Shown here: positions 11,643 through 59,471 of the stretch, in pieces
How the letters are laid out: every line of letters begins with the position of its first letter
Numbering within the stretch: position 1 is the first letter of the stretch
Virus record (IMG/VR): IMGVR_UViG_3300027797_000012
Span: 1 to 64,000 of that record
Length of the DNA: 64,000 nucleotides
Origin: a virus
Direction: 5' to 3' (one strand)
Translations under genes and position numbers: made by a program
Notes under the pieces: generated by a model
Databases searched by the model: none
Seen by the model: only the letters and a program-made list of their open reading frames with translations
What the model was told of the DNA's origin: nothing

Positions 11643-13037
11643 CTACCTGACCTTAAATGTCCCACCACCACGAAACGCAGGCAATTTACGTTGCCCTGGC
11701 GACTTAGCCGTAATCCTTCCACCCATGAACCCTGCTGGTGGCTTAATGAGCAGGGCTGTGAGGGCATGAACTAGTGCGTCCACCCTATCCGGCGACTTTC
11801 CTTCTCCTGGGATCCAGGAGGCCATCTGAGACTCTAGATCACCCATGTATCCGACGTGGTGCACACGATTTTGCTCATAGGCAAGGGTGATAGGCTCAGC
11901 CCGCAGGGCTTTGCCATACTTAGAGTGAACCTCAAGGACCTTTACCGTTGGGTCAATGGTGTTAATGGCGTTTCTTACCAAGGCGCCACCTTGATTGACC
12001 TCAGCGACCACTGGGCATCCCCATTTACGTGCCATAGCGACAACCTTTTGAGCCCAGACGGTGGGTGAGCCTAGAATGGAAGCATCTTCAAGTATCCAGC
12101 TCTGACGTTTGTAAAGATCTCTATCTCCCGTAGAGGCGCAGACGATAATCCCGCATTCATCTCGTGGGTTTTCAGCTACCGATGGGTCAACCCCAATTAC
12201 GCGAAGAGGGACGCCTTGAGGCATAACCATTTCACGGCCTTTGTCGATAAGCTCCATTGTCCATAGAGCTCCTTCAACATCTGAAAGCATCTCGCCGTAA
12301 AGCTCTTGCGCAGCTAGACGAGTTCCTTGGTAAACTCCAAGAATAGCATCAAGGTAAGCTTGAGAAAGGTTTCCGGAGTTATCTAGCGTAGAGCCACGGG
12401 TGATAGCTACGCGCCCAGTAGTCTCGGCTTCTTTAATAAGTGAGTACAAAAGTGGCACGCGCTTCGGTGTGGTAGTAATCATCATCTTAGGATTTTGCCC
12501 AAGACGTACACCCACGCGTAAGTTGTCAAAGGCTGTCATGCCAGCTGCGTCAGGAGTTTGTCGCCAAGCGGCAACCTCATCTCCCCAAGCGTGTGTGAAC
12601 TGAGGTCCACGGAGAGAGTCAGGCTCATCAGCTGTGAAGCATGTGGCGGTATTTCCGTTAGGCCAAGTCAGTCTTCGCTTTGACGGCTCATACAAAGGGC
12701 GTTCACTTGGAGCTGAAACATTTATGATTCCCGATTCACCTTCAACGATAACGTCACGCACGTCGGCAGCTGTACGAGCGACTAGAGCAAAACGGCGTTG
12801 GCCAGTGTCGGTATGCTTAGCTTCTTCTCTTACCCACTCGGCTGCAGCTCTAGTCTTACCAGCACCGCGACCTGCGAGGTACATCCATATAGACCAATCG
12901 CCTTGTGGAGGTTGCTGCTCTGGTCGAGACCAGACAGTCCAATCCCACATGAGATTGTCCATGTCAAAATCCGCAAGGATTTCGTTACGCTCTTCCTCTG
13001 GCAGCATAGCTAGATGCTCCATTATACTTTTACCCAT
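11643..13037 (-). CDS. terL: Terminase large subunit
   Basis: Walker A AGRGAGKT, LRGPQF..AWGDE, TTTP, nuclease GVDPS and SPDRVDA. Confidence 0.93.
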   Translation of the reverse strand: MGKSIMEHLAMLPEEERNEILADFDMDNLMWDWTVWSRPEQQPPQGDWSIWMYLAGRGAGKTRAAAEWVREEAKHTDTGQRRFALVARTAADVRDVIVEGESGIINVSAPSERPLYEPSKRRLTWPNGNTATCFTADEPDSLRGPQFTHAWGDEVAAWRQTPDAAGMTAFDNLRVGVRLGQNPKMMITTTPKRVPLLYSLIKEAETTGRVAITRGSTLDNSGNLSQAYLDAILGVYQGTRLAAQELYGEMLSDVEGALWTMELIDKGREMVMPQGVPLRVIGVDPSVAENPRDECGIIVCASTGDRDLYKRQSWILEDASILGSPTVWAQKVVAMARKWGCPVVAEVNQGGALVRNAINTIDPTVKVLEVHSKYGKALRAEPITLAYEQNRVHHVGYMGDLESQMASWIPGEGKSPDRVDALVHALTALLIKPPAGFMGGRITAKSPGQRKLPAFRGGGTFKVR

Positions 13038-13054
13038 GTGTACTATAGTACATT

Positions 13055-13190
13055 AAAAAAGAAAAAGCTAGACGGTTTTAGCCGCCTAGCTTCTTCTCTA
13101 CCTGAGAAAGGATGTCATCACCTGATGGTGGATTGGAGTACGCCACCAGGGAGACCCTCGATGTGGAGTAATGACTTAAACCAATCGAGT
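13055..13190 (-). ncRNA. Candidate about 130-nt sRNA with anti-SD-like elements
   Basis: Extended -10 at 13197-13205, two hairpins, no ORF, intrinsic terminator at 13055-13092. Confidence 0.55.
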
Positions 13191-13202
13191 AAGGTAATTA
13201 TA

Positions 13203-14123
13203 TCAGGAAACGTCTCGATAAATCTGCGAAACAACTTTCGCCCAAATTACCGGAGTGTGCTCAAGTGGTTGATAACCACCAGCTCCTCCAATAAGAACTC
13301 TGCCTTGCGAATGCTTATTAGCTATACGAGCTACAGCCTTAGCCGCGTACTCGTATCCTGGATAATCAAACTGCAATGAAGACAGAGGATCTGTCTTGTG
13401 CGCATCGGCTCCAGTAGCTAGAAGAATAACATCTGGCTTGATCTCATCCGCTAATGCTTCTATCTCATCCATTGCCTTCTTGAAAGCTTCATCACCGCTG
13501 TTCGCCGGTAGCGCCCAGTTGTAAACTCCTTCGTCTGGTGAATGCCCGCTTCGCCCAGTACCTGGAAAGATAGTTCCATCATGGATACTCGCAGTAACAA
13601 TATCGTAGTGATCTCGTAAAAGATTCTCTACGCCATCGCCATGGTGCGCATCCCAGTCAATGTACATAACCTTTAGGCCTTTGAGATCAAACTGACGAGC
13701 AGCCCAAGCCATATCGTTGAATACACAGAACCCAGATGAGTGGTCGTACTGCGCATGGTGCTTAGCTCCCTGAGGATTAAACGCAACCTTTGCTTCACCT
13801 GCTAAGATCTTTTCAACAAGACGAACTGTGCCCGCAAACATCTCTAAGGCAACCTGACCCTTTTCAAGACTGTTTGGACGCCATTCTCCGCAGTGCCCAT
13901 CATCCAACACCTTAGAAACATAGTGTGAATCGTGTACGAACTGTACTCGATCTCGATCTATGTCTGTGGCATTAGGCGTGACAAGCTCAATATCAAATTC
14001 TTCTGCAAGAAGATTTGTAGCAAGCTTAGCTCGCATAGGATTAGTCGGATGGTTATCGCCTTCAGATCCAAGCTTCCACTTTAAGTAAACATCATCGTAA
14101 GCTACATGTAGTTTACTCGGCAT
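13203..14123 (-). CDS. Zn-dependent histone-deacetylase (HDAC/AcuC) family protein
   Basis: HPTNPMR, GAKHHA..SSGFCVFND, IDWDAHHGDG, IFPGTG, GADAHKTDPL, GGAGGY. Confidence 0.92.
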   Translation of the reverse strand: MPSKLHVAYDDVYLKWKLGSEGDNHPTNPMRAKLATNLLAEEFDIELVTPNATDIDRDRVQFVHDSHYVSKVLDDGHCGEWRPNSLEKGQVALEMFAGTVRLVEKILAGEAKVAFNPQGAKHHAQYDHSSGFCVFNDMAWAARQFDLKGLKVMYIDWDAHHGDGVENLLRDHYDIVTASIHDGTIFPGTGRSGHSPDEGVYNWALPANSGDEAFKKAMDEIEALADEIKPDVILLATGADAHKTDPLSSLQFDYPGYEYAAKAVARIANKHSQGRVLIGGAGGYQPLEHTPVIWAKVVSQIYRDVS

Positions 14124-14667
14124 CTGGTGCTCCTAGCTGGAGTAGGTGCCTTTCAAAGTCCGCATTGCAAAGAACATACGCTGTTCGCTTGCTGCGCATC
14201 AAAGAAATTGCATCTGCAGCTTCATAGCCTTCCCGCATAAGAACGAGAGCTGTAGTCAGACCAGAACGGTTTAACCCAGCTTGGCAACGAATTAAAGTTT
14301 TGTTACCAGATTTCCAAGCGGTATGCGCATATTCAACTACACGCGAAAGCTTTTCCCAGTCGATGTGCTCGATGTTTGAATCATAAAAACCAAAACGCAA
14401 TTCATCAACTAACCAGTCGGCTGGCTTTGCCCATGCATAGAGTGTAATTACCGTATCGAAATCGTCCTTCGTGATTTCACGGCTCAAGCGTGTGTCGGCA
14501 GATGTTTCGATTGTGTCGTTATCATCAGTGCCACCGACCCAGAGACCAGGCAGGATCTCACTCCATAGAGGGAAGTCCCAGCTATCTAGCTCGTGTTTCG
14601 GGGCATACCCTTCTTCGATAATGCTTGCCATGTGTTCGTCTCCTTTGTCATTTGTGTCATTTGTCAT
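14113..14667 (-). CDS. Dual-specificity/tyrosine protein phosphatase
   Basis: CX5R loop RCQAGLNRSG; EILPGLWVGG; alternative start at 14631. Confidence 0.88.
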   Translation of the reverse strand: MTNDTNDKGDEHMASIIEEGYAPKHELDSWDFPLWSEILPGLWVGGTDDNDTIETSADTRLSREITKDDFDTVITLYAWAKPADWLVDELRFGFYDSNIEHIDWEKLSRVVEYAHTAWKSGNKTLIRCQAGLNRSGLTTALVLMREGYEAADAISLMRSKRTAYVLCNADFERHLLQLGAPDAE

Positions 14668-14709
14668 TATATGTACTATTATATCAGGTTATGTTACTCG
14701 CGAGTACCA

Positions 14710-15276
14710 CTACTCTTCTTGCACGAAGGTGTGGATCTCTCCACCGGAGTAGATGTCATGCTGTATAGCTATTTCAATAGCTCGACGCAAAATCTTCTCC
14801 GCAGCTTCGGGAGTCTTAACTTTTCGATAGCTTAGAGCTTCTAAAGCTCCAAGCGCGATGTCTCCGCCGCTACCGGAGTAATAAACGTTCCTAGCTTCTC
14901 TATCCCAAGAGTAGTCATTAAAAATTGGATAGATAACTCCCTGGACCGAAACAATTAAGTTCGAGTCATGCTCCGCAGCTGCTCCGTCGTCCTTACCTTC
15001 GTAGCCAGCATCTTGAAATGCTTTTCTAAGCGAAGGTATGAACTTCTTAGTCATAAAGATGTCTAAGTTTTCAGTTCGAGTAGGCTTAGGCGCCTTCCAA
15101 CCAAATTGGGCAATGTTGCCACCGCGTGATGCACCGGAGACAGCAATTAGCGCTCCATTGTTTTGCACGATTTTATGCGTAGCAAGATCCATGTATCGAC
15201 CACCTTCATCAGATGCTCGTGAATCGCAACCGAGAACAGACCAGCCATCACCTTGTATTGCCGCAAGTGTAGTCAC
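14710..15276 (-). CDS. Ntn-hydrolase, proteasome beta/HslV-like protease
   Basis: GTG start gives N-terminal Thr (TTLAAI); DSRAS, K, GSGGDIALGAL, DIYSGG. Confidence 0.85.
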   Translation of the reverse strand: MTTLAAIQGDGWSVLGCDSRASDEGGRYMDLATHKIVQNNGALIAVSGASRGGNIAQFGWKAPKPTRTENLDIFMTKKFIPSLRKAFQDAGYEGKDDGAAAEHDSNLIVSVQGVIYPIFNDYSWDREARNVYYSGSGGDIALGALEALSYRKVKTPEAAEKILRRAIEIAIQHDIYSGGEIHTFVQEE

Positions 15277-15345
15277 TGGTTCCCTCTCCAAAAGACCTGG
15301 CTAAACGCCTGGGTTAAATATAACCCAAGCGTTTAACCTTTGTCT

Positions 15346-15678
15346 TTAGACTAGGTCGATTATCGCAACAGGTACTGTGACCAGTGCGGATTCTACGTCA
15401 CGGGTGATTGGATTAACCCGTGCGAATCTACCTGTAGGTGTTACAAGTTTAACCACAACCTTCTTCTGTTTCTTGCTTACCACGGTAGCTTTTTGACCTA
15501 CCATGTAACGAGTCCCAGTAAGACTGTTGAATACTACCGTATCACCTATGTGGTAGTCATTGATGGTGCGTTCACTGCGAGATGCAGTAAGACGATCCTC
15601 AATGGCTTCCTTTAGCTTTGTTAAGGAAGAATCATACACACCCGCGTTAACGCTGGCGATGATTACATCTATGTCCAT
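15346..15678 (-). CDS. Hypothetical protein (SH3/KOW-like)
   Basis: Promoter plus SD; IGDTVVF. Confidence 0.6.
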   Translation of the reverse strand: MDIDVIIASVNAGVYDSSLTKLKEAIEDRLTASRSERTINDYHIGDTVVFNSLTGTRYMVGQKATVVSKKQKKVVVKLVTPTGRFARVNPITRDVESALVTVPVAIIDLV

Positions 15679-15856
15679 TTTTGTTCCTTTCCGTCAGTGT
15701 AGTACTATTATATCAGGTATACTGATAAAAGTAAACTAGCCCTACTCTTCGGGTTTGCAAAAGACACAGTGGCACATGTCATCGATGATAGATTTCACGA
15801 CAAGCCAGCCGAGAAACAGTATCAACCCGCAAACAATCCACATAATGCCTTCGGGA

Positions 15857-16057
15857 CTAAGCATCAACCTGGCTAGGGCAATGCCCGAATAATTGGGCAG
15901 TCAGTTGCATACTGGTTTTTCCGGTACGGGTCCAGTCTTGATAAACTCGCTTCCACTCTTTGGAAGCACCCTTAGGGTGATAGACCAAGCATTGACAAGG
16001 AGACGTGGACAGTTCATCCACGGCTCTTGTCTGCTCGGCTATCTGAGAATTAAGCAT
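15857..16057 (-). CDS. Hypothetical protein
   Basis: Operon context. Confidence 0.5.
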   Translation of the reverse strand: MLNSQIAEQTRAVDELSTSPCQCLVYHPKGASKEWKRVYQDWTRTGKTSMQLTAQLFGHCPSQVDA

Positions 16058-16292
16058 CGACCTCGGCACGGAAGTACCCGATACCTTCAGCTGCTTGAAC
16101 TTCATCTTCTACCCAAGGTAGACGCTTTCGATCTGTGTCAAGGAATGAGCTAGCGTAGAGGACTGCCTCACGCTTTGCAGGTCCAAGAGATTTGAATGCA
16201 CCGTAACGTGCTTGCCCTGAGCCAAGATCCTTAACTGTAACTAACCATGCAGCGTTAGGTGCCTTGCTCTTATGTAATGTTGCTACTATCAT
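16050..16292 (-). CDS. Hypothetical protein
   Basis: ATGA coupling. Confidence 0.6.
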   Translation of the reverse strand: MIVATLHKSKAPNAAWLVTVKDLGSGQARYGAFKSLGPAKREAVLYASSFLDTDRKRLPWVEDEVQAAEGIGYFRAEVDA

Positions 16293-16474
16293 TTAGTGCC
16301 TTTCGTCTTTGTCTTTGGTGGCTCAAGAAGTTTCTTGAGCTTCGCGTTCTTTTCTTCAAGCTCTTTGATGTAGATCCGTAAAGCTCGATTGTCACGTATT
16401 GAAAGAATCATCACAAGGCCTGCGCCTAATAGTGCGATGATGATTGCAAGTATATCCGTAGACTCTAGTATCAT
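16289..16474 (-). CDS. Membrane-anchored coiled-coil peptide
   Basis: N-terminal TM. Confidence 0.6.
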   Translation of the reverse strand: MILESTDILAIIIALLGAGLVMILSIRDNRALRIYIKELEEKNAKLKKLLEPPKTKTKGTK

Positions 16475-16770
16475 TAGTTTTCCTCCCAGTTAATAGACCA
16501 GCCATCGCAGTAAGCATCCTCTGTTTTAGGGTGCCACCTTGTTACTGTTTTTTCAGGTATACACATGAATTTAGTAAACTCATGTGCACATTTATGACAG
16601 AGCATAAATTGCAGAGGGTTCTCCGCACCTATAGCGTAGATGTTATCTACGAACATCATATACCCACCATCAAGTGACAGCTCAAGAGCCACAGGTATAT
16701 TCGAGTCCATTGACATGGGTTTGAATACCTGTGGGTCTTGGCAGCGAGAACACTCGACTATAGTTATCAT
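16474..16770 (-). CDS. Hypothetical zinc-binding protein
   Basis: CSRC...CHKC; TAATG coupling. Confidence 0.6.
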   Translation of the reverse strand: MITIVECSRCQDPQVFKPMSMDSNIPVALELSLDGGYMMFVDNIYAIGAENPLQFMLCHKCAHEFTKFMCIPEKTVTRWHPKTEDAYCDGWSINWEEN

Positions 16771-17048
16771 TACGCGCCGGTAGATCCTGCAATACTTAGA
16801 TAGCTAATGTCACCAGGCTCGCGATACTGAATTTCCTCGCGCACAACTTCTGGGTGGTTAAGCACGAGAGCGAGTAGCTCCTCTGCGCTCATTTCTTCGT
16901 GAGGCTCTCCACGAGTTTCTTTCATAACTACTACCTTCTCGATTGGTGCGGTAGCACCTAGTAGAAGTTCTCTTACCTGTGCCTTCGTGTCAATGATGTA
17001 GTAGTAAGTAGTTCCCTTAATGGTTACTGCTGTTCCATACGCTGTCAT
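16770..17048 (-). CDS. Hypothetical protein
   Basis: GGAGAGG SD. Confidence 0.6.
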   Translation of the reverse strand: MTAYGTAVTIKGTTYYYIIDTKAQVRELLLGATAPIEKVVVMKETRGEPHEEMSAEELLALVLNHPEVVREEIQYREPGDISYLSIAGSTGA

Positions 17049-17060
17049 GTTGTCCTCTCC

Positions 17061-17303
17061 TTAGACCGCAAACGCGAGTCTATATCCTTTTGCAATTTTA
17101 GAGTTAACCTTTGCAACCGCAGCAACTCGAGCGCTTTGGTCTGTAATGAAACGTTGTGATTGGTTCTGGCGTTGAGATTTCTCAGCCATTCCCCATGTGG
17201 TGCGAACTGTAGATCCGTCGAGGATTACCTCGTAAATCTTCTTCTTACCGATAGCACCGCGAGCGCCATCGCTGTCTTTTAAGAGACACCATCTTTGAGT
17301 CAT
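17061..17303 (-). CDS. WGR-domain protein
   Basis: KKIYEV...VRTTWG...K..SKIAKGY. Confidence 0.7.
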   Translation of the reverse strand: MTQRWCLLKDSDGARGAIGKKKIYEVILDGSTVRTTWGMAEKSQRQNQSQRFITDQSARVAAVAKVNSKIAKGYRLAFAV

Positions 17304-17350
17304 TTTATATCCTTCCGTCGTTTGGTAATACTATTATATCAGGTTTAGTT

Positions 17351-17524
17351 TTACTTGTACAACACCTTGCATAAGGCTTCGTACTTTTCATCTAACCACT
17401 TAATTTGGTTTTCTGTGAGGGTTTGAACCTCAACCTCGCCGCGTTCTTCACGACGACGTCCGCGCTTAGCCAGCTTGACACCGGCGTATAGAACCACGCT
17501 GTCCTTGACTAATCCGTTAAACAT
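17351..17524 (-). CDS. Hypothetical protein
   Basis: Promoter at 17565 plus SD. Confidence 0.55.
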   Translation of the reverse strand: MFNGLVKDSVVLYAGVKLAKRGRRREERGEVEVQTLTENQIKWLDEKYEALCKVLYK

Positions 17525-17595
17525 TTTCTTTCCTTTTCTACCAGCCACCTTGGCTGATAGGTTAATTATAACATGGTACTGGTAAAAAGTACACC

Positions 17596-17871
17596 TTACT
17601 CGTCGGTAACATCTTCCTCGTCCGGCCACATCTCCGGACGGAGGGCAAACTCGTATTGGTCACCCCTCCAGGAGTTTGTACCAAAGGAGATGTCTTCCTC
17701 CATGAGCTTGTTCAGGGACAGGACCGCAGTGTGCCCTTCAGCCTCGAACATGATTACCAATTTGGTATCTGATTGCTCAGGGTCATCAACGAGAGCTACA
17801 GTGAACGGCATCCCACCGATTCCATTTCTGTGAGTGTCCATGTCAACAATCTCTAGCTTATCGGCGTTCAT
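17596..17871 (-). CDS. Hypothetical phage protein
   Basis: HRNGIGG..F, NSWRGDQYE. Confidence 0.65.
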   Translation of the reverse strand: MNADKLEIVDMDTHRNGIGGMPFTVALVDDPEQSDTKLVIMFEAEGHTAVLSLNKLMEEDISFGTNSWRGDQYEFALRPEMWPDEEDVTDE

Positions 17872-18032
17872 TCTTCTCTCTTCCGTTCTGGTCGTCTCTT
17901 AGAAATCTCATGGGTTGCTAAATCCATCTTATGTTTGTGCAGCCAATCCTTTGCTACAGTTTCATTTATGAACTCACCCAGCCATTTTCCCTCTGGATTA
18001 AATACATTTACAAGATCGTATAGGGTACTCAT
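17868..18032 (-). CDS. Hypothetical protein
   Basis: 54 aa, ATGA overlaps on both sides. Confidence 0.5.
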   Translation of the reverse strand: MSTLYDLVNVFNPEGKWLGEFINETVAKDWLHKHKMDLATHEISKRRPERKREE

Positions 18033-18607
18033 TGAGAAACTCTATTCGCTGACTTGACTGGTGTATAGCATGTGCTCTTTCCCTTATGTTGTATGTATCC
18101 GTAACGAGCTAACCGAAAGCGTAGAGCTCCATGGGTAACCCCAAGAGATTTAGCAAGACGGTACAGAGTAACTTTTTCTACCGTGTGAGCTTTCCAAATT
18201 AGCGCACTGTACTCTTCAGCTTCAGCTCGGTATTGTTTGTGGTCGTAGCGAACTTTCTGTGCAAGAGGTTGTAGCTCAAGTAAACGAGCTAGAGTCTCCT
18301 TGCTTGGCAAGATCGGTACATGCACATCCTTAACCTCAACGTCTTCAAGTGGAACAGACGGCATAGGGAATTCTCCGGGATTAGCAAGAATGCTAATAAC
18401 GAGAGAAGGTTGGGCAGATGATTCAATTTGACGAATACGTTCTCTGGTAAGACCCATTGCATTCGCAAGGCTCTGCAGTGTCCACTTGTTACAGCGGAGT
18501 GCATACACATAAGCTGCGCGAGTCTCTTTGTCTTTGATGATACCGAGTTTAACGGTAGCTTCGAACGGCAACACTAAGTGCTGTCTAACTTCTTTTTGTA
18601 CTATCAT
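18029..18607 (-). CDS. Sigma-70 region-4-like HTH protein
   Basis: WTLQSLANAMGLTRERIRQIE plus a second HTH. Confidence 0.7.
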   Translation of the reverse strand: MIVQKEVRQHLVLPFEATVKLGIIKDKETRAAYVYALRCNKWTLQSLANAMGLTRERIRQIESSAQPSLVISILANPGEFPMPSVPLEDVEVKDVHVPILPSKETLARLLELQPLAQKVRYDHKQYRAEAEEYSALIWKAHTVEKVTLYRLAKSLGVTHGALRFRLARYGYIQHKGKSTCYTPVKSANRVSQ

Positions 18608-18616
18608 TGGTTTCCT

Positions 18617-18826
18617 TTAGTTAATTGCTAGTGGGTCGCATGTAGGGAGAGTGTGAGTTCTCCAGTCGGTAATAACTGTGTCTAGTACTTCGGCAAGATC
18701 TTCCGGTAACTGCGCTGCGATAAGCTTTACAGTCGCAACGGTAACCGCATTATCTGTAAACATGTCATCATGCTCAGACTGATTGAATCCGCACATGTGA
18801 CATAGATCTCCTCCACCACTACTCAT
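18617..18826 (-). CDS. Hypothetical protein
   Basis: Operon context. Confidence 0.5.
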   Translation of the reverse strand: MSSGGGDLCHMCGFNQSEHDDMFTDNAVTVATVKLIAAQLPEDLAEVLDTVITDWRTHTLPTCDPLAIN

Positions 18827-18978
18827 GCGGCCACCTGCGCTTGACTCTTAATACGAGATTGAAGATCTGAAACCATGTGGGCAAGGTGATGGAATCCTGC
18901 ATTTTGGCAGGAAGCTTTCTCTTTGCCAAGCGCACGCAGAATTAGCTCTACGTCTTTATCGGTAAGTTCAATGTTCAC
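18823..18978 (-). CDS. Hypothetical protein
   Basis: GTG start, 51 aa, fills the gap between neighbours. Confidence 0.45.
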   Translation of the reverse strand: MNIELTDKDVELILRALGKEKASCQNAGFHHLAHMVSDLQSRIKSQAQVAA

Positions 18979-18980
18979 TA

Positions 18981-19271
18981 TTACACCAGTCTTTCTTTTG
19001 CAAGAACTGCGTTCTTTACGAGTTCAACTACATCTTTGTTAAATCCACCGATGTTGTACTCCATAACTTCATCCATGTCAGGCGCACCTAAATCGTAGCG
19101 CTTCCAATCATAAACTGTCGCAACAGACCCATCTGAAAACATGTGGGTCCATTCAACGGTAACTTTGTCACCTGGGTAGTAGAACGTTGGTTCGTCAAAT
19201 GCCTTAATGAGATCTCTCATTGTAGTTGTGACATACCCTTGTAGGGATGTTCCATTTGCGATGTTGCTCAT
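18981..19271 (-). CDS. Conserved-looking hypothetical phage protein
   Basis: GTSLQG..., DKVTVEW, ATVYDWK, NIGG; promoter plus SD. Confidence 0.7.
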   Translation of the reverse strand: MSNIANGTSLQGYVTTTMRDLIKAFDEPTFYYPGDKVTVEWTHMFSDGSVATVYDWKRYDLGAPDMDEVMEYNIGGFNKDVVELVKNAVLAKERLV

Positions 19272-19312
19272 TTCTTTGTCCTTTCGTCGTTGTTAGTACT
19301 ATTATAACATGT

Positions 19313-19537
19313 TTACTTGTCTAAGTAAACTATCTCCACAAATTCATTTGCCCAGGCGGTAAGCCCAGCTTCCATCTTGTTTTTATGATGACCGCAGAAG
19401 AATAGCTCAGCTCCGGAGTTCCCTTTTACTTTCCAGATTGCCTGAGCTGTCTGGCAGGAATCACAAGGAACCCAACCGTAAGAATCTTTAGGCGTTTCTT
19501 CAAGTACTTTTACTTCTTCAGTAATGGTAGACTCCAC
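19313..19537 (-). CDS. Small zinc-finger protein
   Basis: CDSC...LFFCGHH. Confidence 0.6.
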   Translation of the reverse strand: MESTITEEVKVLEETPKDSYGWVPCDSCQTAQAIWKVKGNSGAELFFCGHHKNKMEAGLTAWANEFVEIVYLDK

Positions 19538-19571
19538 GTTCTCTCCTTTAGTTGAGTTAATCATACTTGGT

Positions 19572-19811
19572 TTAGAAATTGTTGTTTGGGTCGTACCAGC
19601 CTTCGCGTGAGTTTTCCTCACCGCACTGGTTACAGATCCACTCAGCAGTCCAAGTTACATCGCCGTGCGAGTACTCTTCAATGGTCGGTACCTCATAAGA
19701 TGCGGTACACTCGTCATTACCGCAATCAAGCTCTTGAACGCCATCGCTCTCATCAGCACCAGCAATCTGCCATTCAGAACCGGAGACTCCCGGTGGGTAG
19801 TTGCTACTCAT
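19572..19811 (-). CDS. Acidic zinc-ribbon protein
   Basis: NYPPGV; CGNDEC...CNQCG. Confidence 0.6.
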   Translation of the reverse strand: MSSNYPPGVSGSEWQIAGADESDGVQELDCGNDECTASYEVPTIEEYSHGDVTWTAEWICNQCGEENSREGWYDPNNNF

Positions 19812-20002
19812 TAGTTGTTCCGATGGTTTAGAAAGTCTTCAATGGTGTTTTGAATCGCATCATTGATGTCGTCCGCAAGTTGGTCGATTTCTTCTTTCGT
19901 GTATTCCACGAAACCTTCTTCATCTCCATTACCCCACATCAGTCTCAACTGATCTGTGGTTAGAGATGAGTCAAAGATTACTATGTCTTCTTTCTCGTCC
20001 AT
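19811..20002 (-). CDS. Acidic hypothetical protein
   Basis: Promoter plus SD. Confidence 0.6.
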   Translation of the reverse strand: MDEKEDIVIFDSSLTTDQLRLMWGNGDEEGFVEYTKEEIDQLADDINDAIQNTIEDFLNHRNN

Positions 20003-20063
20003 AGGGTTCCTTTCGTCGTTGTGTATAAGTTAATTATAACATGTTTTAGATCTAAAGTACACT

Positions 20064-20153
20064 TTAGTCTTTATGCCAGCAGTCACAACCGCATCTCTTG
20101 GCGCAGTACTCGTGTTCGCCGCTTAGACAATTATCGCACTTAGGTTTAGACAT
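20064..20153 (-). CDS. 29-aa Cys-rich peptide
   Basis: MSKPKCDNCLSGEHEYCAKRCGCDCWHKD after ACGGAAGGA SD. Confidence 0.5.
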   Translation of the reverse strand: MSKPKCDNCLSGEHEYCAKRCGCDCWHKD

Positions 20154-20208
20154 CTTGTGTTCCTTCCGTGGAAGGTAGCTCACCGGAGTGGTGAGCTACC
20201 CGCAACTA

Positions 20209-20655
20209 TTACTTAACTGGGTACTTGTCCGCATCTTTCTGAGTGACCGGAGTCATCTGACCAAAATCTGGGTTTGTTAGGTGTGAGTTAATGTAAACTA
20301 TAATGTCTTCATAATCTACATCAAAGGAGAAGAGAGTGTGAGTATAGTACTCACTGTGAATTCTTAGCTCATAACATTTAGAACCGGTGTCTTCAACTAG
20401 AGTAGGTTCTGACTGGTCTTCATCTACTATGTAGTAGATACCTTCTGGAGTCTTTACTAAGAAGGTGCCCGCATCTTGTCCACCTAAACCTATAGATAGA
20501 AGAATGGTTCCTTCTGGGAGAGTATTGATGTATGGGGTTTCTAATTCATCATACCAAGAAACTTTATTGTTTTCATCATTTAGGTATGAATTGAAATCAA
20601 CTGCTGGAGTATTTTTGAAGTGGTTGTTGAAGTGAGTAAGTGTTGAAGTCTTCAT
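20209..20655 (-). CDS. Hypothetical protein
   Basis: Promoter plus GATTGGA SD; AT-rich. Confidence 0.6.
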   Translation of the reverse strand: MKTSTLTHFNNHFKNTPAVDFNSYLNDENNKVSWYDELETPYINTLPEGTILLSIGLGGQDAGTFLVKTPEGIYYIVDEDQSEPTLVEDTGSKCYELRIHSEYYTHTLFSFDVDYEDIIVYINSHLTNPDFGQMTPVTQKDADKYPVK

Positions 20656-20773
20656 TTAGGTTCCAATCTATTTTTTAACCCTTGTGGTTAATAAGATAAT
20701 TGTATCATACTTCTATTATAAAGTACAATTGAAGGTACCCTACCGGTGAGTAGGGTACCCGCAATAATTAGAA

Positions 20774-20917
20774 TTAGCTCCAGAAGTTTTCTGAGGCGTA
20801 GCTCTCAGCCTGGACTGCCGGCTTGCTCTCCTTGCGGGCTAGCCAGACCCACATAATGATAAGAGGTGTGTTTAGAAGTAGTGCGCCTGCGATAATCTGA
20901 ACTAGTGCTGTTGTCAT
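20774..20917 (-). CDS. Small membrane protein
   Basis: 47 aa; same promoter/leader cassette as the gene starting at 20655. Confidence 0.55.
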   Translation of the reverse strand: MTTALVQIIAGALLLNTPLIIMWVWLARKESKPAVQAESYASENFWS

Positions 20918-21001
20918 TTTGTTTTCCAATCTTTCTTTTTTATTAACCCTTGTGGTTAATAAGTTAATTATAACATGGTTCTATTACAAAGTACAATACC
21001 A

Positions 21002-21296
21002 AATGAAAGAAGCTGGCCGCGTGGATTGGAATACGCGCAGCCAGCTTCAATTCACTGGACAAGACAGTTTGCTCACAAAGGGCCTGATTCGCGCTTCACT
21101 TTTTGCGCAGTACCGCATGTCGATTCTGCTATGCGGTTTTAATCCTAACTTCCCTAAGACAATATTGCTCTGTCTCTTTCCTAAGTCAAGCTACCCATAC
21201 CCGCGGTGCCGTGTCAGCTTATCGGGAGTAGTGTCTCCATGAGATACCCTTATGCTCCAAGACTTAGTAAGTCCAAACCTACGTATTAAGTTGTTA
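21002..21296 (-). ncRNA. Candidate about 290-nt structured ncRNA
   Basis: Promoter at 21302, no credible ORF, multiple helices, terminator at 21002-21048. Confidence 0.6.
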
Positions 21297-21313
21297 GTCC
21301 TATTATAACAGGT

Positions 21314-21493
21314 TTATTCCCATTCGGTAATAAATACTGCCTCGAAATCTTCTATTGGTCGTTTTAGACCAATCCGCGCCATCTCCAGGTATCGGGTAAC
21401 GTCCGCACGTTTACGGGCACGAAACTTAGAGATGCGTTCACCCGTATGAACATCACGAATTTCCCAGATGCCAGCCGATGCATTTTTGCTCAC
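21314..21493 (-). CDS. Hypothetical protein
   Basis: GTGA coupling. Confidence 0.5.
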   Translation of the reverse strand: MSKNASAGIWEIRDVHTGERISKFRARKRADVTRYLEMARIGLKRPIEDFEAVFITEWE

Positions 21494-21861
21494 CGGAAGA
21501 ACCCAGCTTCTTCTTCGTACGAATTGCGAAGCTTTCTTGCAAGTTCCTCGAGCTGTACTAGCCAAGGGTGCGGTAGAGCTAGGTTGTCACCTTCATCGTC
21601 CGTGCCGCCGGTGAATACGACGTCGCCCATAATGATGTCGGACATGATGAAAGACTTTTCCCAAAGGTGAGTAGCAATAACGTTTGGTTGCATTCCATTG
21701 ATAAGCTTACCCTCTTCGTTACACCAAAGTGTGAGGTCGTCATACAGGTCTGCTGCTTCAACCAAGCCGCCGACAGCTTCCTGGAGTTGTGTGAGACTGT
21801 CTACCTCAAGATCTAAGATCTCTGTTGTGAAGTCCGTGTTAATTCGTAGTGCTGTTTTCAT
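21490..21861 (-). CDS. DUF3846-family protein
   Basis: LQEAVGGLVE, WCNEEGKL, N.IAT, IMGDVVFTG. Confidence 0.8.
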   Translation of the reverse strand: MKTALRINTDFTTEILDLEVDSLTQLQEAVGGLVEAADLYDDLTLWCNEEGKLINGMQPNVIATHLWEKSFIMSDIIMGDVVFTGGTDDEGDNLALPHPWLVQLEELARKLRNSYEEEAGFFR

Positions 21862-22043
21862 GATGTAGCTATCTCCGCTTCTGGAAACCACTTAAGGAAT
21901 ACTTGAATGAGATGATTGTAGTCTCCTGAAGTCATCTCTTCGGTAAATGTTGCAAGCTCGTCTTCACGACCCGCACTTATTAAAGCACGCCTACCGGCGC
22001 CAATGAATGAGAAAGCATTCCCATCGTTAACTGAAACTGTCAT
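21858..22043 (-). CDS. Hypothetical phage protein
   Basis: DGNAFSFIG...SGDYNHLI. Confidence 0.65.
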   Translation of the reverse strand: MTVSVNDGNAFSFIGAGRRALISAGREDELATFTEEMTSGDYNHLIQVFLKWFPEAEIATS

Positions 22044-22273
22044 GAACTCATCTCCTCTACGAATAAGTGGCCTGGTCCATTACCCTCAGGATCTTGTGAC
22101 GGTACGAATCCATGCCCATTGTCGAGAATGTAAACTACAGGTATCGAACCTGAACTGTCTTGTTCCCAACCGAACAAGTCTAGCTCTTCATTATTTAGCT
22201 CACGGACCTTAACGATTGTTCGCCCAATGAGGGAACCCCAGGTCTTTTGAATGTATGCATCGTACTTACTCAT
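22040..22273 (-). CDS. Hypothetical phage protein
   Basis: LIGRTIVKVR, SQDPEGNGPG. Confidence 0.65.
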   Translation of the reverse strand: MSKYDAYIQKTWGSLIGRTIVKVRELNNEELDLFGWEQDSSGSIPVVYILDNGHGFVPSQDPEGNGPGHLFVEEMSS

Positions 22274-22408
22274 TTAGATAACCTCTCTTCCGCATTCACG
22301 GTACAAGTCTTCACCGCATCCTCCGCAGTAGGCAAGCAGACATTTAGCTCCATCTGCGTGAATGCAAGGAATGAAACTTACTTCTGTACTATTACAGTAT
22401 GTGCTCAT
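22274..22408 (-). CDS. Small Cys-rich protein
   Basis: 44 aa after GAAAGGATTGGA SD. Confidence 0.5.
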   Translation of the reverse strand: MSTYCNSTEVSFIPCIHADGAKCLLAYCGGCGEDLYRECGREVI

Positions 22409-22601
22409 TGCTTTCCAATCCTTTCGTCGTTTAAGTATTCAAGGGCCGCGGTGATGCTTCGGCCTATCTTGCCAGAGGTGCCTGCAGATTATGCACGGCA
22501 CGTGGACTCGGGCGTCGCGTGTTCCGCCTAGTTTAACTGGTGACCAGCACCCTTGAATAGTTTAATTATATCAGGTTATGAGGAAGAAGTACAGGGCTGC
22601 C

Positions 22602-26674: not shown

Positions 26675-26716
26675 TTTAGTTCCTTCCGTCTGTTAGGTAC
26701 TATTATATCAGGTAAG

Positions 26717-26791
26717 TGGGGAGAGTGGGGCTCGAACCCACGCGACGACCGGAGTATAAGTCCGGAGCTCTACCAACTGAGCTACCTCCCC
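26717..26791 (-). tRNA. tRNA-Ile (anticodon UAU)
   Basis: Full cloverleaf: GGGGAGG/TCTCCCC acceptor, CCGGA-CTTATAC-TCCGG, GTGGG-TTCGAGC-CCCAC, discriminator A; CCA not encoded. Confidence 0.85.
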
Positions 26792-34336: not shown

Positions 34337-34476
34337 TCTGCTCCAATCCAAAAGAAGCACAGATCAAGATCAAACGATTTCTTGTCAAAGCGGATAGCTA
34401 ACGAGAAGTGCTTGAAGGAGTATCCATAATGAAACCAGGTGTTTCCCTTCTTCCCGACTTTAATCTCTTTGTGCAT
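34330..34476 (-). CDS. Hypothetical protein
   Basis: 48 aa filling the gap between neighbours. Confidence 0.45.
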   Translation of the reverse strand: MHKEIKVGKKGNTWFHYGYSFKHFSLAIRFDKKSFDLDLCFFWIGAEW

Positions 34477-40930: not shown

Positions 40931-41003
40931 GCGGACGTAGCGCAGTTGGTAGCGCGGAACCTTGCCAAGGTTCAGGTCGCCGGTTCGAACCCGGTCGTCC
41001 GCT
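40931..41003 (+). tRNA. tRNA-Gly (GCC)
   Basis: GCGGACG/CGTCCGC acceptor, AACCT-TGCCA-AGGTT, GGTTCGAAC; CCA not encoded. Confidence 0.92.
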
Positions 41004-41204
41004 CTAGATTTCAGTTAATTGTTCTATTTCTTGAACAACATCCTGTTTCATAGCGTAAAGACTATTTAGTACATCTTGTCTTAAAGGTTTATCTGGATGA
41101 TCAGAATCTGGGTAATCTAAAATGTTCTTTTCTAATATGTCTATATGCACATCAAAATTGTCAATTTGATTGTTTAATAAAACTATCTGTTCTTCATTAG
41201 TCAT
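41004..41204 (-). CDS. Hypothetical protein
   Basis: Follows the FN3 gene. Confidence 0.55.
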   Translation of the reverse strand: MTNEEQIVLLNNQIDNFDVHIDILEKNILDYPDSDHPDKPLRQDVLNSLYAMKQDVVQEIEQLTEI

Positions 41205-59221: not shown

Positions 59222-59471
59222 ATATGATTACCTTGCTCTAGCATCTTTGCGTCGTTAACTCCAATCAAATCTTAATGTACTGCGCTGCTTTAGCAGAGAA
59301 GCTCTATCATATCACTTTTGTGCAAAATGTGTTACTTGGCGAATATAAAGGGTACTTGCCATAAGTGTACACTACATTTCACTTAAATTACTCTTTTTAT
59401 CATTAACTACTTATTCCACTTAATATACAATTTATCCACTATAACCATTCACCTGGAAGGCACTATTCTCT

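What the first reader, a model, noticed from the sequence alone, without database searches (positions are those of the whole stretch)
13128..21036. Two otherwise unrelated ncRNA candidates display the same UCCAAU loop, complementary to GAUUGGA sites
Seen: GCGUAYUCCAAUCCAC (15/16 identical) caps hairpins at 13128-13143 and 21021-21036. Sense-strand complements lie in initiation regions or leaders: GGAUUGGAA before 22408, GAUUGGAA before 20655 and 20917, UGGAUUGGAG before the glycosyltransferase (34341-34350), and GAUUGGAGU in the primase-helicase leader (59258-59266). Inference: a shared seed for trans repression, or a protein-binding loop.
Basis: partly seen in the sequence, partly recalled or inferred. 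Interest (0 to 1): 0.7.

Follow-up and report, generated by a model that had tools for sequence, protein, structure and literature searches.

The report
Phage RNA loops mirroring private ribosome sites
Two unrelated non-coding RNAs of an uncultured lake phage of actinobacteria show the same exposed ten-letter loop, which mirrors an unusual ribosome-binding site used by a small set of the phage's own genes, so the loops probably switch those genes off, though this is untested.

Summary
On the gene (minus) strand, GCGUAYUCCAAUCCAC sits at 13143-13128 and 21036-21021, and both copies fold the same way: stem, C.A mismatch, G-C pair, 10-nt loop UAYUCCAAUC.

The carriers are two separate RNA genes, each with its own -10 box and terminator:
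- a ~140-nt sRNA just upstream of the large terminase gene;
- a ~295-nt RNA whose terminator carries the loop.

In related IMG/VR phage contigs the loop recurs in three contexts, while all 8 stem pairs change in a compensating way.

GAUUGGA is a real second ribosome-site class. It lies 6-8 nt before the start codon in 19 of 278 distinct promoter-proximal leaders. The flanks vary freely. The usual site is GAAAGGA.

Loop and site co-occur on contigs (18/13/3/46, not corrected for phylogeny).

Against a simple pairing model:
- one complete relative has the loop but no such site;
- lineages with other loops show no matching new site;
- no usable transcript data exist.

Best reading (about 0.5): a loop-displayed, altered anti-Shine-Dalgarno seed that masks GAUUGGA sites. 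It is a new variant of loop-seed sRNAs. This scan has noted analogous phage RNAs on other DNA.

The parts
13052..13205 (-). sRNA1 gene, about 140 nt. Extended -10 TGATATAAT at 13205-13197; its TGA is the stop codon of the upstream deacetylase gene. Predicted start is near 13190. Order of elements: hairpin A, hairpin B, single-stranded CAUCCUUUCU, intrinsic terminator 13099-13058, U-run.
   Evidence: Sequence. Fold -60.2 kcal/mol, z = -5.87. Terminator scan. Promoter, both hairpins and terminator are conserved in 22 distinct related sequences upstream of TerL. Consensus structure has 30 pairs, 13 with compensatory changes, on 17 of the 23 distinct sequences. No Rfam family.
13119..13152 (-). 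Hairpin B of sRNA1. The loop UACUCCAAUC is 13140-13131, closed by G13141-C13130, with a C.A mismatch below.
21001..21310 (-). ncRNA2 gene, about 295 nt. It has a -10 TGTTATAAT at 21310-21302, a structured body and a terminator hairpin. It follows a 59-codon ORF that ends at 21314.
   Evidence: Sequence. Fold z = -2.18. It is 87-89% identical in two related contigs whose flanks are unrelated, 76% in a third, and has syntenic homologues in G011 and L097. No Rfam family.
21001..21048 (-). Terminator hairpin of ncRNA2. Arms are GAAGCUGGC (21048-21040) and GCCAGCUUC (21017-21009), with an inner stem CGCG/CGCG. The loop UAUUCCAAUC is 21033-21024. The U-rich tail UUUCAUUU is 21008-21001.
   Evidence: The stem covaries in relatives (GGUUACGUG...CAUGUAACC) while the loop is kept.
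20925..20931 (-). GAUUGGA ribosome site of a 47-codon membrane-peptide gene (20917-20774). It is preceded by its own promoter (TGTTATAAT) and a 5' leader hairpin UUAACCACAAGGGUUAA.
20662..20668 (-). GAUUGGA ribosome site of a 148-codon gene of unknown family (20655-20209), behind a duplicate of the same promoter and leader-hairpin module.
   Evidence: The homologue in relatives keeps GATTGGA while the leader changes. No Pfam or PHROG match.
22414..22420 (-). GAUUGGA overlapping the canonical ACGACGAAAGGA leader, 5 nt before ATG 22408 of a 44-codon ORF (22408-22274).
34342..34348 (-). GAUUGGAG 5 nt before the in-frame GTG 34336 of a 222-codon glycosyltransferase-like gene (to 33668).
   Evidence: PHROG 1574 at E = 2.5e-43 and PHROG 12406, a glycosyltransferase family.
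59258..59266 (-). GAUUGGAGU in the 5' leader of the primase-helicase gene, about 38 nt before ATG 59221. In relatives it sits directly after a -10-like box.
   Evidence: It is kept in 15 of 50 distinct upstream sequences (23 of 79 loci), all from the closest clade.

Best explanation
**What is there (shown).**
- The phage encodes at least two independent non-coding RNAs that display one module: a stem capped by G-[UAYUCCAAUC]-C.
- Its core, CUCCAAUC, is the exact complement of GAUUGGAG.
- A minority of the phage's own-promoter genes use GAUUGGA(G/A) in the Shine-Dalgarno position, where the phage otherwise uses GAAAGGA.

**A resemblance (from recalled knowledge).** The actinobacterial 16S rRNA tail, as I recall it, contains CUCCUUUC. 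The loop reads like that tail with UU changed to AA. The minority site reads like the usual site with the matching AA changed to UU.

**Proposed mechanism (inferred, not shown).**
- The exposed loop pairs over 7-11 nt with GAUUGGA sites.
- This occludes the ribosome site of that gene class only and leaves GAAAGGA genes alone.
- As the RNAs accumulate, translation of a set of small early genes would be damped or shut off.
- The primase-helicase leader site may be a further target.

**Shown:** structure, conservation, complementarity, co-occurrence.
**Inferred:** transcription, pairing, direction of the effect.
For: **Loop as an RNA-level element.**
- The apical module is identical in two RNAs that otherwise share no sequence.
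- Across 20 distinct hairpins from three contexts, 8 of 8 stem pairs show changes on both sides. 91% of cells pair against 59% in shuffles (0 of 500 reach it), and slid controls give 25-51%.
- The loop was the selection criterion for that set. The unbiased counts are 18 of 23 distinct sRNA1 homologues, 4 of 7 ncRNA2 homologues and 11 of 11 loci with enough upstream DNA in the third context.
- Further instances lie at other positions.

**GAUUGGA as a translation-linked signal.**
- It is in 19 of 278 distinct promoter-proximal leaders, always 6-8 nt from the start codon.
- Its distance from the -10 box and all flanking sequence vary.
- 178 of the 278 leaders carry the GAAAGG type.
- One-letter variants are few: AATTGGA 4, GATTGGG 2, GACTGGA 2, GATTGAA 1.
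- One gene family after TerL carries it in five distinct leader forms, in L014, L015, L033, L035 and L055.

**Link between the two.**
- Among 146 start regions of the window's genome, the four GAUUGGA genes rank 1, 2, 3, 5 (loop 1) and 1, 2, 3, 6 (loop 2) for duplex energy plus target opening energy. Sums are -6.2 to -12.2 kcal/mol against means of -1.65 and -0.8, sd 3.2. This ranking is partly circular.
- On 80 unique TerL-centred contigs: loop and site 18, loop only 13, site only 3, neither 46. Fisher one-sided p = 3.9e-7, not corrected for phylogeny.
- Where ncRNA2 ends in the UCCAAUC loop, the next gene has a GAUUGGA site in 3 of 4 forms. Where it ends in another loop, the next gene has the usual site in 3 of 3.
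- The 8th position fits in those cases. Loop U goes with GAUUGGAA in the window, and loop C with GAUUGGAG in L082 and L094.
- GATTGGG variants would still pair through G.U.
Against: **No matched change of loop and site.**
- In a narrow lineage (TerL 97-100% identical, 16 contigs) the sRNA1 loop is UCCAAUC in 8, CCUCAGUU in 3 and UUCAACCCC in 5.
- No ribosome-site class complementary to the two other loops appears in those fragments.
- 2 of the 8 contigs without UCCAAUC still carry a GAUUGGAG site.

**Loop without site.**
- The complete 129.5-kb relative G011 has one loop hairpin and no GAUUGGA ribosome site. It keeps only the primase-helicase leader copy.
- G015 (26 kb) and G005 (15 kb read) also have loops without such sites.

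**Site without loop.**
- Phage DSL-LC01, a complete genome, has one GAUUGGAG ribosome site and no loop.
- GAUUGGAG contains GGAG, so it can act as an ordinary if weaker Shine-Dalgarno site with no partner at all.

**Other weaknesses.**
- A-type sites (GAUUGGAA) commonly sit in contigs that have only C-type loops.
- The contiguous complementarity is short, 7-11 nt.
- The co-occurrence statistic ignores shared ancestry, and two of its loop calls look doubtful.
- No transcript ends, strand or level could be read.
Confidence: 0.5

Rival explanations
1. The loop is a recognition module for something other than the phage's GAUUGGA sites: a phage or host RNA-binding protein, a nuclease, or a host RNA. 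GAUUGGA is then simply a weaker GGA/GGAG-type Shine-Dalgarno variant tied to certain gene cassettes. The complementarity would be coincidental or secondary.
For: - The loop is kept in a complete genome with no GAUUGGA ribosome site and in many fragments without one (13 of 31 loop-bearing contigs).
- A GAUUGGAG site exists without any loop in DSL-LC01 and in L231 and L232.
- There is no seed-target co-variation.
- The whole 10-nt loop and its G-C closing pair are conserved, beyond the 7-8 nt needed for pairing. That fits a shape-specific ligand.
Against: - By my own rough estimate, an exact complement between a conserved loop and the second most common ribosome-site class would arise by chance a few percent of the time at most.
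- GAUUGGA sites are almost confined to contigs with the loop: 18 of 21.
- No candidate protein is identified.
Confidence: 0.27
2. The effect acts in cis. On transcripts that read through the ncRNA2 terminator, or through the 3'-UTR hairpin, the loop pairs with the GAUUGGA site of the next gene about 95-100 nt downstream. This forms a pseudoknot. Only transcripts from the proximal promoter would then be translated.
For: - The ncRNA2 loop lies 93-100 nt upstream of a GAUUGGA site in the window, L082 and L094.
- 3 of 4 UCCAAUC terminators are followed by such a gene, against 0 of 3 other terminators.
- In L257 a loop hairpin lies about 270 nt before a GAUUGGA gene.
Against: - sRNA1 is followed by the leaderless terminase gene, not by a GAUUGGA gene, and by a strong terminator.
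- Many GAUUGGA genes lie kilobases from any loop.
- L098 has the loop terminator followed by an ordinary leader.
Confidence: 0.08
3. GATTGGA/TCCAATC is a double-stranded DNA site for a transcription factor, read in either orientation.
For: The same heptamer occurs in both orientations in non-coding DNA near promoters.
Against: - The stems around TCCAATC covary, as expected for RNA structure.
- GATTGGA keeps a fixed distance to the start codon and a variable distance to the -10 box.
Confidence: 0.03
4. The loop mimics a tRNA element, for example the CUCCAA of a tryptophan-tRNA anticodon loop (recalled), and acts as a decoy for a host nuclease or enzyme.
For: Only a recalled resemblance of CUCCAA to that anticodon loop. 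No call supports it.
Against: - The loop has 10 nt, not 7, and no closing pairs would make a 7-nt loop.
- ARAGORN and Rfam find no tRNA-like element here.
Confidence: 0.03
5. Chance. Two unrelated hairpins happen to share a loop, and the heptamer excess is noise.
For: A 15/16 match alone is expected about 20 times in 64 kb (my estimate).
Against: - Loop conservation with covarying stems in three contexts and many contigs.
- 15 observed against 6.0 expected heptamers.
- 19 distinct leaders share the heptamer at a fixed spacing.
Confidence: 0.04

Closest known systems
6C (B11) sRNA of Actinobacteria (PMC6486639; I saw only the search listing and the start of the abstract)
   Same: It is an actinobacterial-system small RNA that, by its title and abstract, binds several mRNAs through exposed pyrimidine loops without an RNA chaperone. 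The layout is several hairpins plus a terminator.
   Different: - Its loops are C-rich, not UCCAAUC.
- It is a host gene, not a phage gene.
- No Rfam family, 6C included, matches either RNA here, even at E up to 10.
- Here the same loop sits on two unrelated RNAs and matches a private ribosome-site variant rather than G-rich sites in general.
Staphylococcus aureus RNAIII and RsaE-type sRNAs with UCCC loops (RNAIII is recalled; for RsaE, PMC2965222, I saw the search listing only)
   Same: Hairpin loops carry an anti-Shine-Dalgarno-like pyrimidine seed that pairs with ribosome sites and blocks initiation.
   Different: - Those seeds fit generic GGGA/GGAG sites of host mRNAs.
- Here the seed has an AA insert that fits only GAUUGGA, a site class distinct from the phage's main GAAAGGA.
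- There is no sequence or Rfam relation.
3' tail of 16S rRNA, the anti-Shine-Dalgarno sequence (actinobacterial tail recalled as ending CCUCCUUUCU)
   Same: The loop core CUCCAAUC equals the tail's CUCCUUUC at 6 of 8 positions. sRNA1 also carries a single-stranded CAUCCUUUCU next to the loop hairpin.
   Different: - It is displayed in a hairpin loop of a small RNA, not on the ribosome.
- The two middle letters are swapped so that it fits GAUUGGAG, not GAAAGGAG.
Phage RNAs with anti-ribosome-site loops noted earlier in this scan on other genomes (AI notes e1-6075962, e1-5779598, e1-6018739, e1-6163064; unpublished and not checked by me)
   Same: Uncultured phages, some of actinobacteria, encode small RNAs whose hairpin loops mirror the ribosome sites of their own early genes. 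Two of those notes report loop and site changing together.
   Different: - Different phages and different loop sequences.
- Here two unrelated RNAs and a 3'-UTR hairpin share the loop.
- It matches only a minority site class.
- My co-variation test was negative or inconclusive.
Phage T4 RegA and RegB control of early-gene translation (recalled)
   Same: It is a phage device that turns off translation of a subset of its own early messages by acting at their ribosome sites.
   Different: Those are proteins, a repressor and a GGAG-cutting nuclease. Here the proposed effector is RNA.

Membership tests
Trans-acting base-pairing sRNA with a loop-exposed anti-ribosome-site seed | Independent transcription unit: own promoter and intrinsic terminator, no ORF | tested here: met
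   In silico only. Conserved extended -10 boxes and terminators flank both RNAs. Flanks differ between relatives while the RNA is kept.
Trans-acting base-pairing sRNA with a loop-exposed anti-ribosome-site seed | The RNA is made as a discrete transcript | tested here: inconclusive
   One metatranscriptome run holds 99% of the sampled words of 12600-22500. Only assembled contigs at flat depth could be laid. They show no ends, strand or level, and DNA carry-over is not excluded.
Trans-acting base-pairing sRNA with a loop-exposed anti-ribosome-site seed | Seed unpaired and conserved while the supporting stem covaries | tested here: met
   8 of 8 pairs compensatory, 0 of 500 shuffles as good. Unbiased loop conservation: 18 of 23, 4 of 7 and 11 of 11.
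Trans-acting base-pairing sRNA with a loop-exposed anti-ribosome-site seed | Seed complementary to ribosome sites of specific mRNAs | tested here: met
   There are 7-11 nt of complement to four ribosome sites and one leader in the window's genome. These are the top-ranked of 146 start regions. 19 distinct GAUUGGA leaders occur in relatives.
Trans-acting base-pairing sRNA with a loop-exposed anti-ribosome-site seed | Seed and target change together across relatives | tested here: inconclusive
   No matching site class was found for the CCUCAGUU or UUCAACCCC loops, but only fragments of 6-16 kb were available. The only fit seen is the U/A versus C/G match at the 8th position in two lineages. Co-occurrence is positive but not corrected for phylogeny.
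Trans-acting base-pairing sRNA with a loop-exposed anti-ribosome-site seed | Pairing lowers translation of the target | not testable with these tools
   Needs gel shift, toeprint or reporter assays.
Any curated Rfam family (6C, RsmZ/PrrB, tRNA and others) | Score at or above the family's gathering threshold | tested here: not met
   The only hits in the window at gathering threshold are two tRNAs elsewhere. The best relaxed hits are far below threshold: PrrB_RsmZ 18.4 against 44 bits, Ms_IGR-8 15.8 against 44.
Intrinsic (factor-independent) terminator, for the hairpin at 21048-21009 | G+C-rich stem followed directly by a U-rich tract on the transcribed strand | tested here: met
   A 9-bp outer stem plus inner stem is followed by UUUCAUUU, read directly and folded. 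The simple scan missed it because its loop limit is 3-8 nt.

The most novel reading that the evidence does not exclude
The phage runs a private translation-control channel. It uses an orthogonal pair: a Shine-Dalgarno variant (GAUUGGAG, the usual GAAAGGAG with AA changed to UU) and an RNA-borne mimic of the 16S tail carrying the compensating change (CUCCAAUC for CUCCUUUC). The mimic is displayed on several unrelated RNAs. One set of early genes can therefore be silenced on its own while bulk GAAAGGA translation continues. sRNA1 carries the altered mimic in a loop and an unaltered CCUUUCU stretch beside it, so it would address both site classes.
Probability: 0.3. Interest if true: 0.8.

Novelty: new variant of a known kind. 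Interest (0 to 1): 0.62.

Why it matters
- Regulatory RNAs of lytic phages, and of phages of actinobacteria in particular, are almost uncharted. My searches found no paper on a phage RNA whose loop masks ribosome sites of the phage's own genes.
- If the pairing is real, a phage sorts its genes into two translation classes by a two-letter change in the ribosome site, and addresses one class with a matching RNA loop.
- The idea is simple to test. It has a ready-made compensatory-mutation design: swap AA and UU.
- It would also offer a natural template for orthogonal translation control in actinobacteria.
- Independent of mechanism, the work defines two conserved phage RNA families and a second ribosome-site class, which should improve gene-start calling in this abundant group of freshwater phages.

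Tried and rejected
- **Third hairpin.** A third hairpin has the loop UAAUCCAAUC at 15428-15399. I rejected it as part of the system. It lies inside a well-supported 110-codon ORF. The peptide RVNP(I/V/T)T is kept in G011, G002, G003, G004 and G006 with other codons and no hairpin.
- **Plain cofolding.** Cofolding sRNA1 or hairpin 2 with start regions cannot model loop-to-strand pairing and favoured the single-stranded CCUUUCU. I dropped it for a duplex-plus-opening-energy ranking, which is partly circular.
- **RNA evidence.** Run X1 holds 99% of the sampled words, and X2-X5 hold 5-12%. Laying X1-X4 gave assembled contigs only, with flat depth and no ends or strand. Nothing can be said about expression.
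- **Other collections.** The GenBank phage collection has no DNA match to the 10-kb region, ncRNA2 or sRNA1. The nearest named phage, DSL-LC01, is related only at protein level, 52% on one ATPase.
- **Co-variation in variant-loop lineages**. No private site matches the other loops. An 8-nt match between G011's ncRNA2 terminator loop and an AUGUCGAA leader looked interesting. By my estimate about 0.7 such matches are expected by chance, so I dropped it.
- **Small-protein search.** Searching for relatives of the 148-codon gene found only 3 loci.
- **Wrong coordinates.** In one search I entered wrong coordinates for two starts (34330 and 59242). The right ones are 34336 and 59244. One search gives the corrected count of 4 ribosome-site copies in the genome.
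- **Doubtful loop calls.** The 2x2 table includes two loop calls (L286, L287) that are probably not true hairpins.
- **Supplementary files** of papers were not consulted.

Full report
**Setting.** The window is the first 64 kb of a single 130,553-bp phage contig with 46% G+C. Genes between 10 and 35 kb run on the minus strand. The nearest named phage is the lake metagenome-assembled Actinomycetia phage DSL-LC01, related only at protein level (PMC10611076, search listing only). The large terminase has 393 relatives among IMG/VR contigs, so comparative data are rich.

**The observation.**
- On the transcribed strand the 16-mers GCGUACUCCAAUCCAC (13143-13128) and GCGUAUUCCAAUCCAC (21036-21021) are the only two matches in the whole genome at up to three mismatches.
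- Both fold with the same apex: a G-C pair, a C.A mismatch, a G-C closing pair and the 10-nt loop UAYUCCAAUC.
- GATTGGA occurs 15 times in the window against 6.0 +/- 2.3 expected, and 0 of 100 shuffles reach 15.
- Four of the five sense-strand copies listed lie 5-7 nt before a start codon. The fifth, before the primase-helicase gene, lies about 38 nt upstream of the start, in the leader.

**What carries the loops.**
- *sRNA1.* The first hairpin is the second stem-loop of a unit of about 140 nt. The unit starts at an extended -10 box, TGATATAAT, overlapping the stop codon of the deacetylase gene. It ends in a strong intrinsic terminator just before the terminase gene.
  - In an alignment of the 215 nt upstream of the terminase gene (78 loci, 56 distinct sequences), 22 distinct sequences plus the window keep the whole unit. 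That means the -10 box, hairpin A, the GGUCUC...GAGAC-based hairpin B, a single-stranded CCUUUC stretch and the terminator.
  - The consensus fold on 17 of these 23 has 30 pairs, 13 with compensatory changes.
  - The same unit sits 3.8 kb upstream of the terminase gene in another lineage.
- *ncRNA2.* The second hairpin is the terminator of a unit of about 295 nt with its own -10 box.
  - It is 87-89% identical in contigs whose flanks are unrelated, and 76% in a further one.
  - It has syntenic homologues in more distant relatives.
- Neither unit matches any Rfam family or any GenBank phage. The two share nothing but the apical module.

**The loop is a conserved RNA module.**
- Searching all fetched DNA for TAYTCCAATC gave 24 distinct sites. 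Twenty are hairpins of the form G-[loop]-C. They fall into three contexts:
  - sRNA1;
  - the ncRNA2 terminator;
  - a hairpin after the stop codon of another gene, 2.3-3.2 kb upstream of the terminase gene, in a lineage that lacks sRNA1 at the usual place.
- On these 20, all eight stem pairs show changes on both sides. 91% of cells pair against 59% in shuffles, none of 500 shuffles does as well, and slid registers give 25-51%.
- Because that set was chosen by its loop, loop conservation must be judged on positional homologues. UCCAAUC is present in 18 of 23 distinct sRNA1 forms (13 UACUCCAAUC, 5 GCCUCCAAUCC); the others read CCUCAGUU (3) or UUCAACCCC (2). It is present in 4 of 7 ncRNA2 forms and in 11 of 11 loci of the third context that reach far enough upstream.
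- A third look-alike hairpin in the window (15428-15399) is a by-product of coding sequence.

**GAUUGGA is a second ribosome-site class.**
- Most own-promoter genes of this phage group have the leader AACGACGAAAGGA followed by 5-7 nt and ATG. DSL-LC01 does the same.
- I took all leaders between an extended -10 box and the first start of an ORF of at least 35 codons, in all fetched DNA. Of 278 distinct leaders, 178 are of that type and 19 carry GATTGGA.
- GATTGGA is always 6-8 nt before the start. Leader length, 5' hairpin and flanking letters vary.
- One-letter variants are few.
- The spacing is fixed to the start codon, not to the promoter. The signal is therefore read at the RNA level, in the Shine-Dalgarno position.
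- In some relatives four to six such genes form an array, each with its own promoter and a covarying 5' hairpin.
- The genes are mostly small and of unknown family.

**The link between loop and site.**
- The core CUCCAAUC is the exact complement of GAUUGGAG.
- From recalled knowledge of the actinobacterial 16S tail, the loop equals the tail's CUCCUUUC with UU changed to AA. The site equals the usual GAAAGGAG with AA changed to UU. The loop should therefore bind GAUUGGA sites and not GAAAGGA sites.
- Ranking 146 start regions of the genome by duplex energy plus target opening energy puts the four GAUUGGA genes at ranks 1, 2, 3, 5 and 1, 2, 3, 6 for the two loops. This is partly circular.
- On 80 unique terminase-centred contigs the counts are: loop and site 18, loop only 13, site only 3, neither 46 (p = 3.9e-7). 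This is not corrected for shared ancestry, and two loop calls are doubtful.
- ncRNA2 forms ending in the UCCAAUC loop are followed by a GAUUGGA gene in 3 of 4 cases. Forms ending in other loops are followed by an ordinary leader in 3 of 3.

**Results against a simple pairing model.**
- In a narrow lineage (terminase 97-100% identical, 16 contigs) the sRNA1 loop differs between contigs. No ribosome-site class complementary to the other loops appears in the available 6-16 kb. Two contigs without the loop still have a GAUUGGAG gene.
- The complete relative G011 keeps one loop hairpin but has no GAUUGGA ribosome site, only the leader copy before the primase-helicase gene. That leader copy is kept in 15 of 50 distinct upstream sequences, all from the closest clade; three more distant ones read GAUGGGAG or GAUAGGAG.
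- DSL-LC01 has one GAUUGGAG site and no loop.
- GAUUGGAG contains GGAG and can serve as an ordinary site.
- Expression could not be assessed.

**Verdict.**
- The loop and the site class are each real and under selection. Their complementarity and co-occurrence make RNA-RNA pairing the best single explanation, at about 0.5. The likely effect is masking of the ribosome site.
- The main rival, at about 0.27, is that the loop binds something else and the match is secondary.
- The kind is known: loop-seed sRNAs such as 6C (PMC6486639, listing and abstract start only) and RNAIII or RsaE (recalled; PMC2965222, listing only). Membership in any of those families fails on sequence and Rfam tests.
- Earlier notes of this scan describe analogous phage RNAs on other genomes. 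Two earlier notes describe the two carrier RNAs of this window. I treat all of these as leads, not as support.
- What differs from the published kinds I compared:
  - the RNAs are phage-encoded;
  - the same loop sits on unrelated RNAs;
  - it is matched to a private minority site rather than to the general one.

Noticed in passing
window 13007-13058 (minus strand), and the same place in loci L001-L059: The large terminase gene appears to be leaderless. Its conserved start (MGKS...) at 13037 follows directly on a highly conserved palindrome, AATGTACTATAGTACAC|ATG, with no ribosome site. The palindrome is kept in most of the 56 distinct upstream sequences, including lineages that lack sRNA1.
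   Followed up: partly
window 13105-13119 (minus strand): sRNA1 also carries a single-stranded CAUCCUUUCU between hairpin B and the terminator. CCUUUC is conserved in relatives. It mirrors the usual GAAAGGA site, so this RNA holds complements of both site classes.
   Followed up: partly
window 21060-21290 (minus strand): The body of ncRNA2 holds several purine motifs of the form UUAGG(A/G)A, UUGGAG and AAGGG that look like ribosome sites. It could act as a sponge for anti-Shine-Dalgarno-like RNAs or for ribosomes. In G011 and L097 its 5' part itself reads GGAUUGGAC.
   Followed up: no
window 20940-20960 and 20675-20691 (minus strand); L082 5500-7650: GAUUGGA genes mostly begin with a short 5' hairpin of the form UUAAC-N-GUUAA right after the predicted start. 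The stem covaries between genes (UUAACCACAAGGGUUAA, UUAACGAGCUACGUUAA, UAACGAAAUACGUUA). It may be a 5'-end stabiliser.
   Followed up: no
L257 130-240: Between the loop hairpin and the next GAUUGGA gene lies another unit with a -10 box, about 100 nt without an ORF, and a terminator. It may be a further small RNA.
   Followed up: no
window 26716-26791 (minus) and 40931-41004 (plus): Two phage tRNA genes: tRNA-Ile (anticodon TAT) and tRNA-Gly (GCC).
   Followed up: no
   Followed up: no
window 12938-12944 and L095 15619: GATTGGA also occurs inside the terminase coding region, as Asp-Trp codons, about 100-230 nt downstream of sRNA1. It sits at different codons in different lineages, so it is probably a coding coincidence.
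   Followed up: partly
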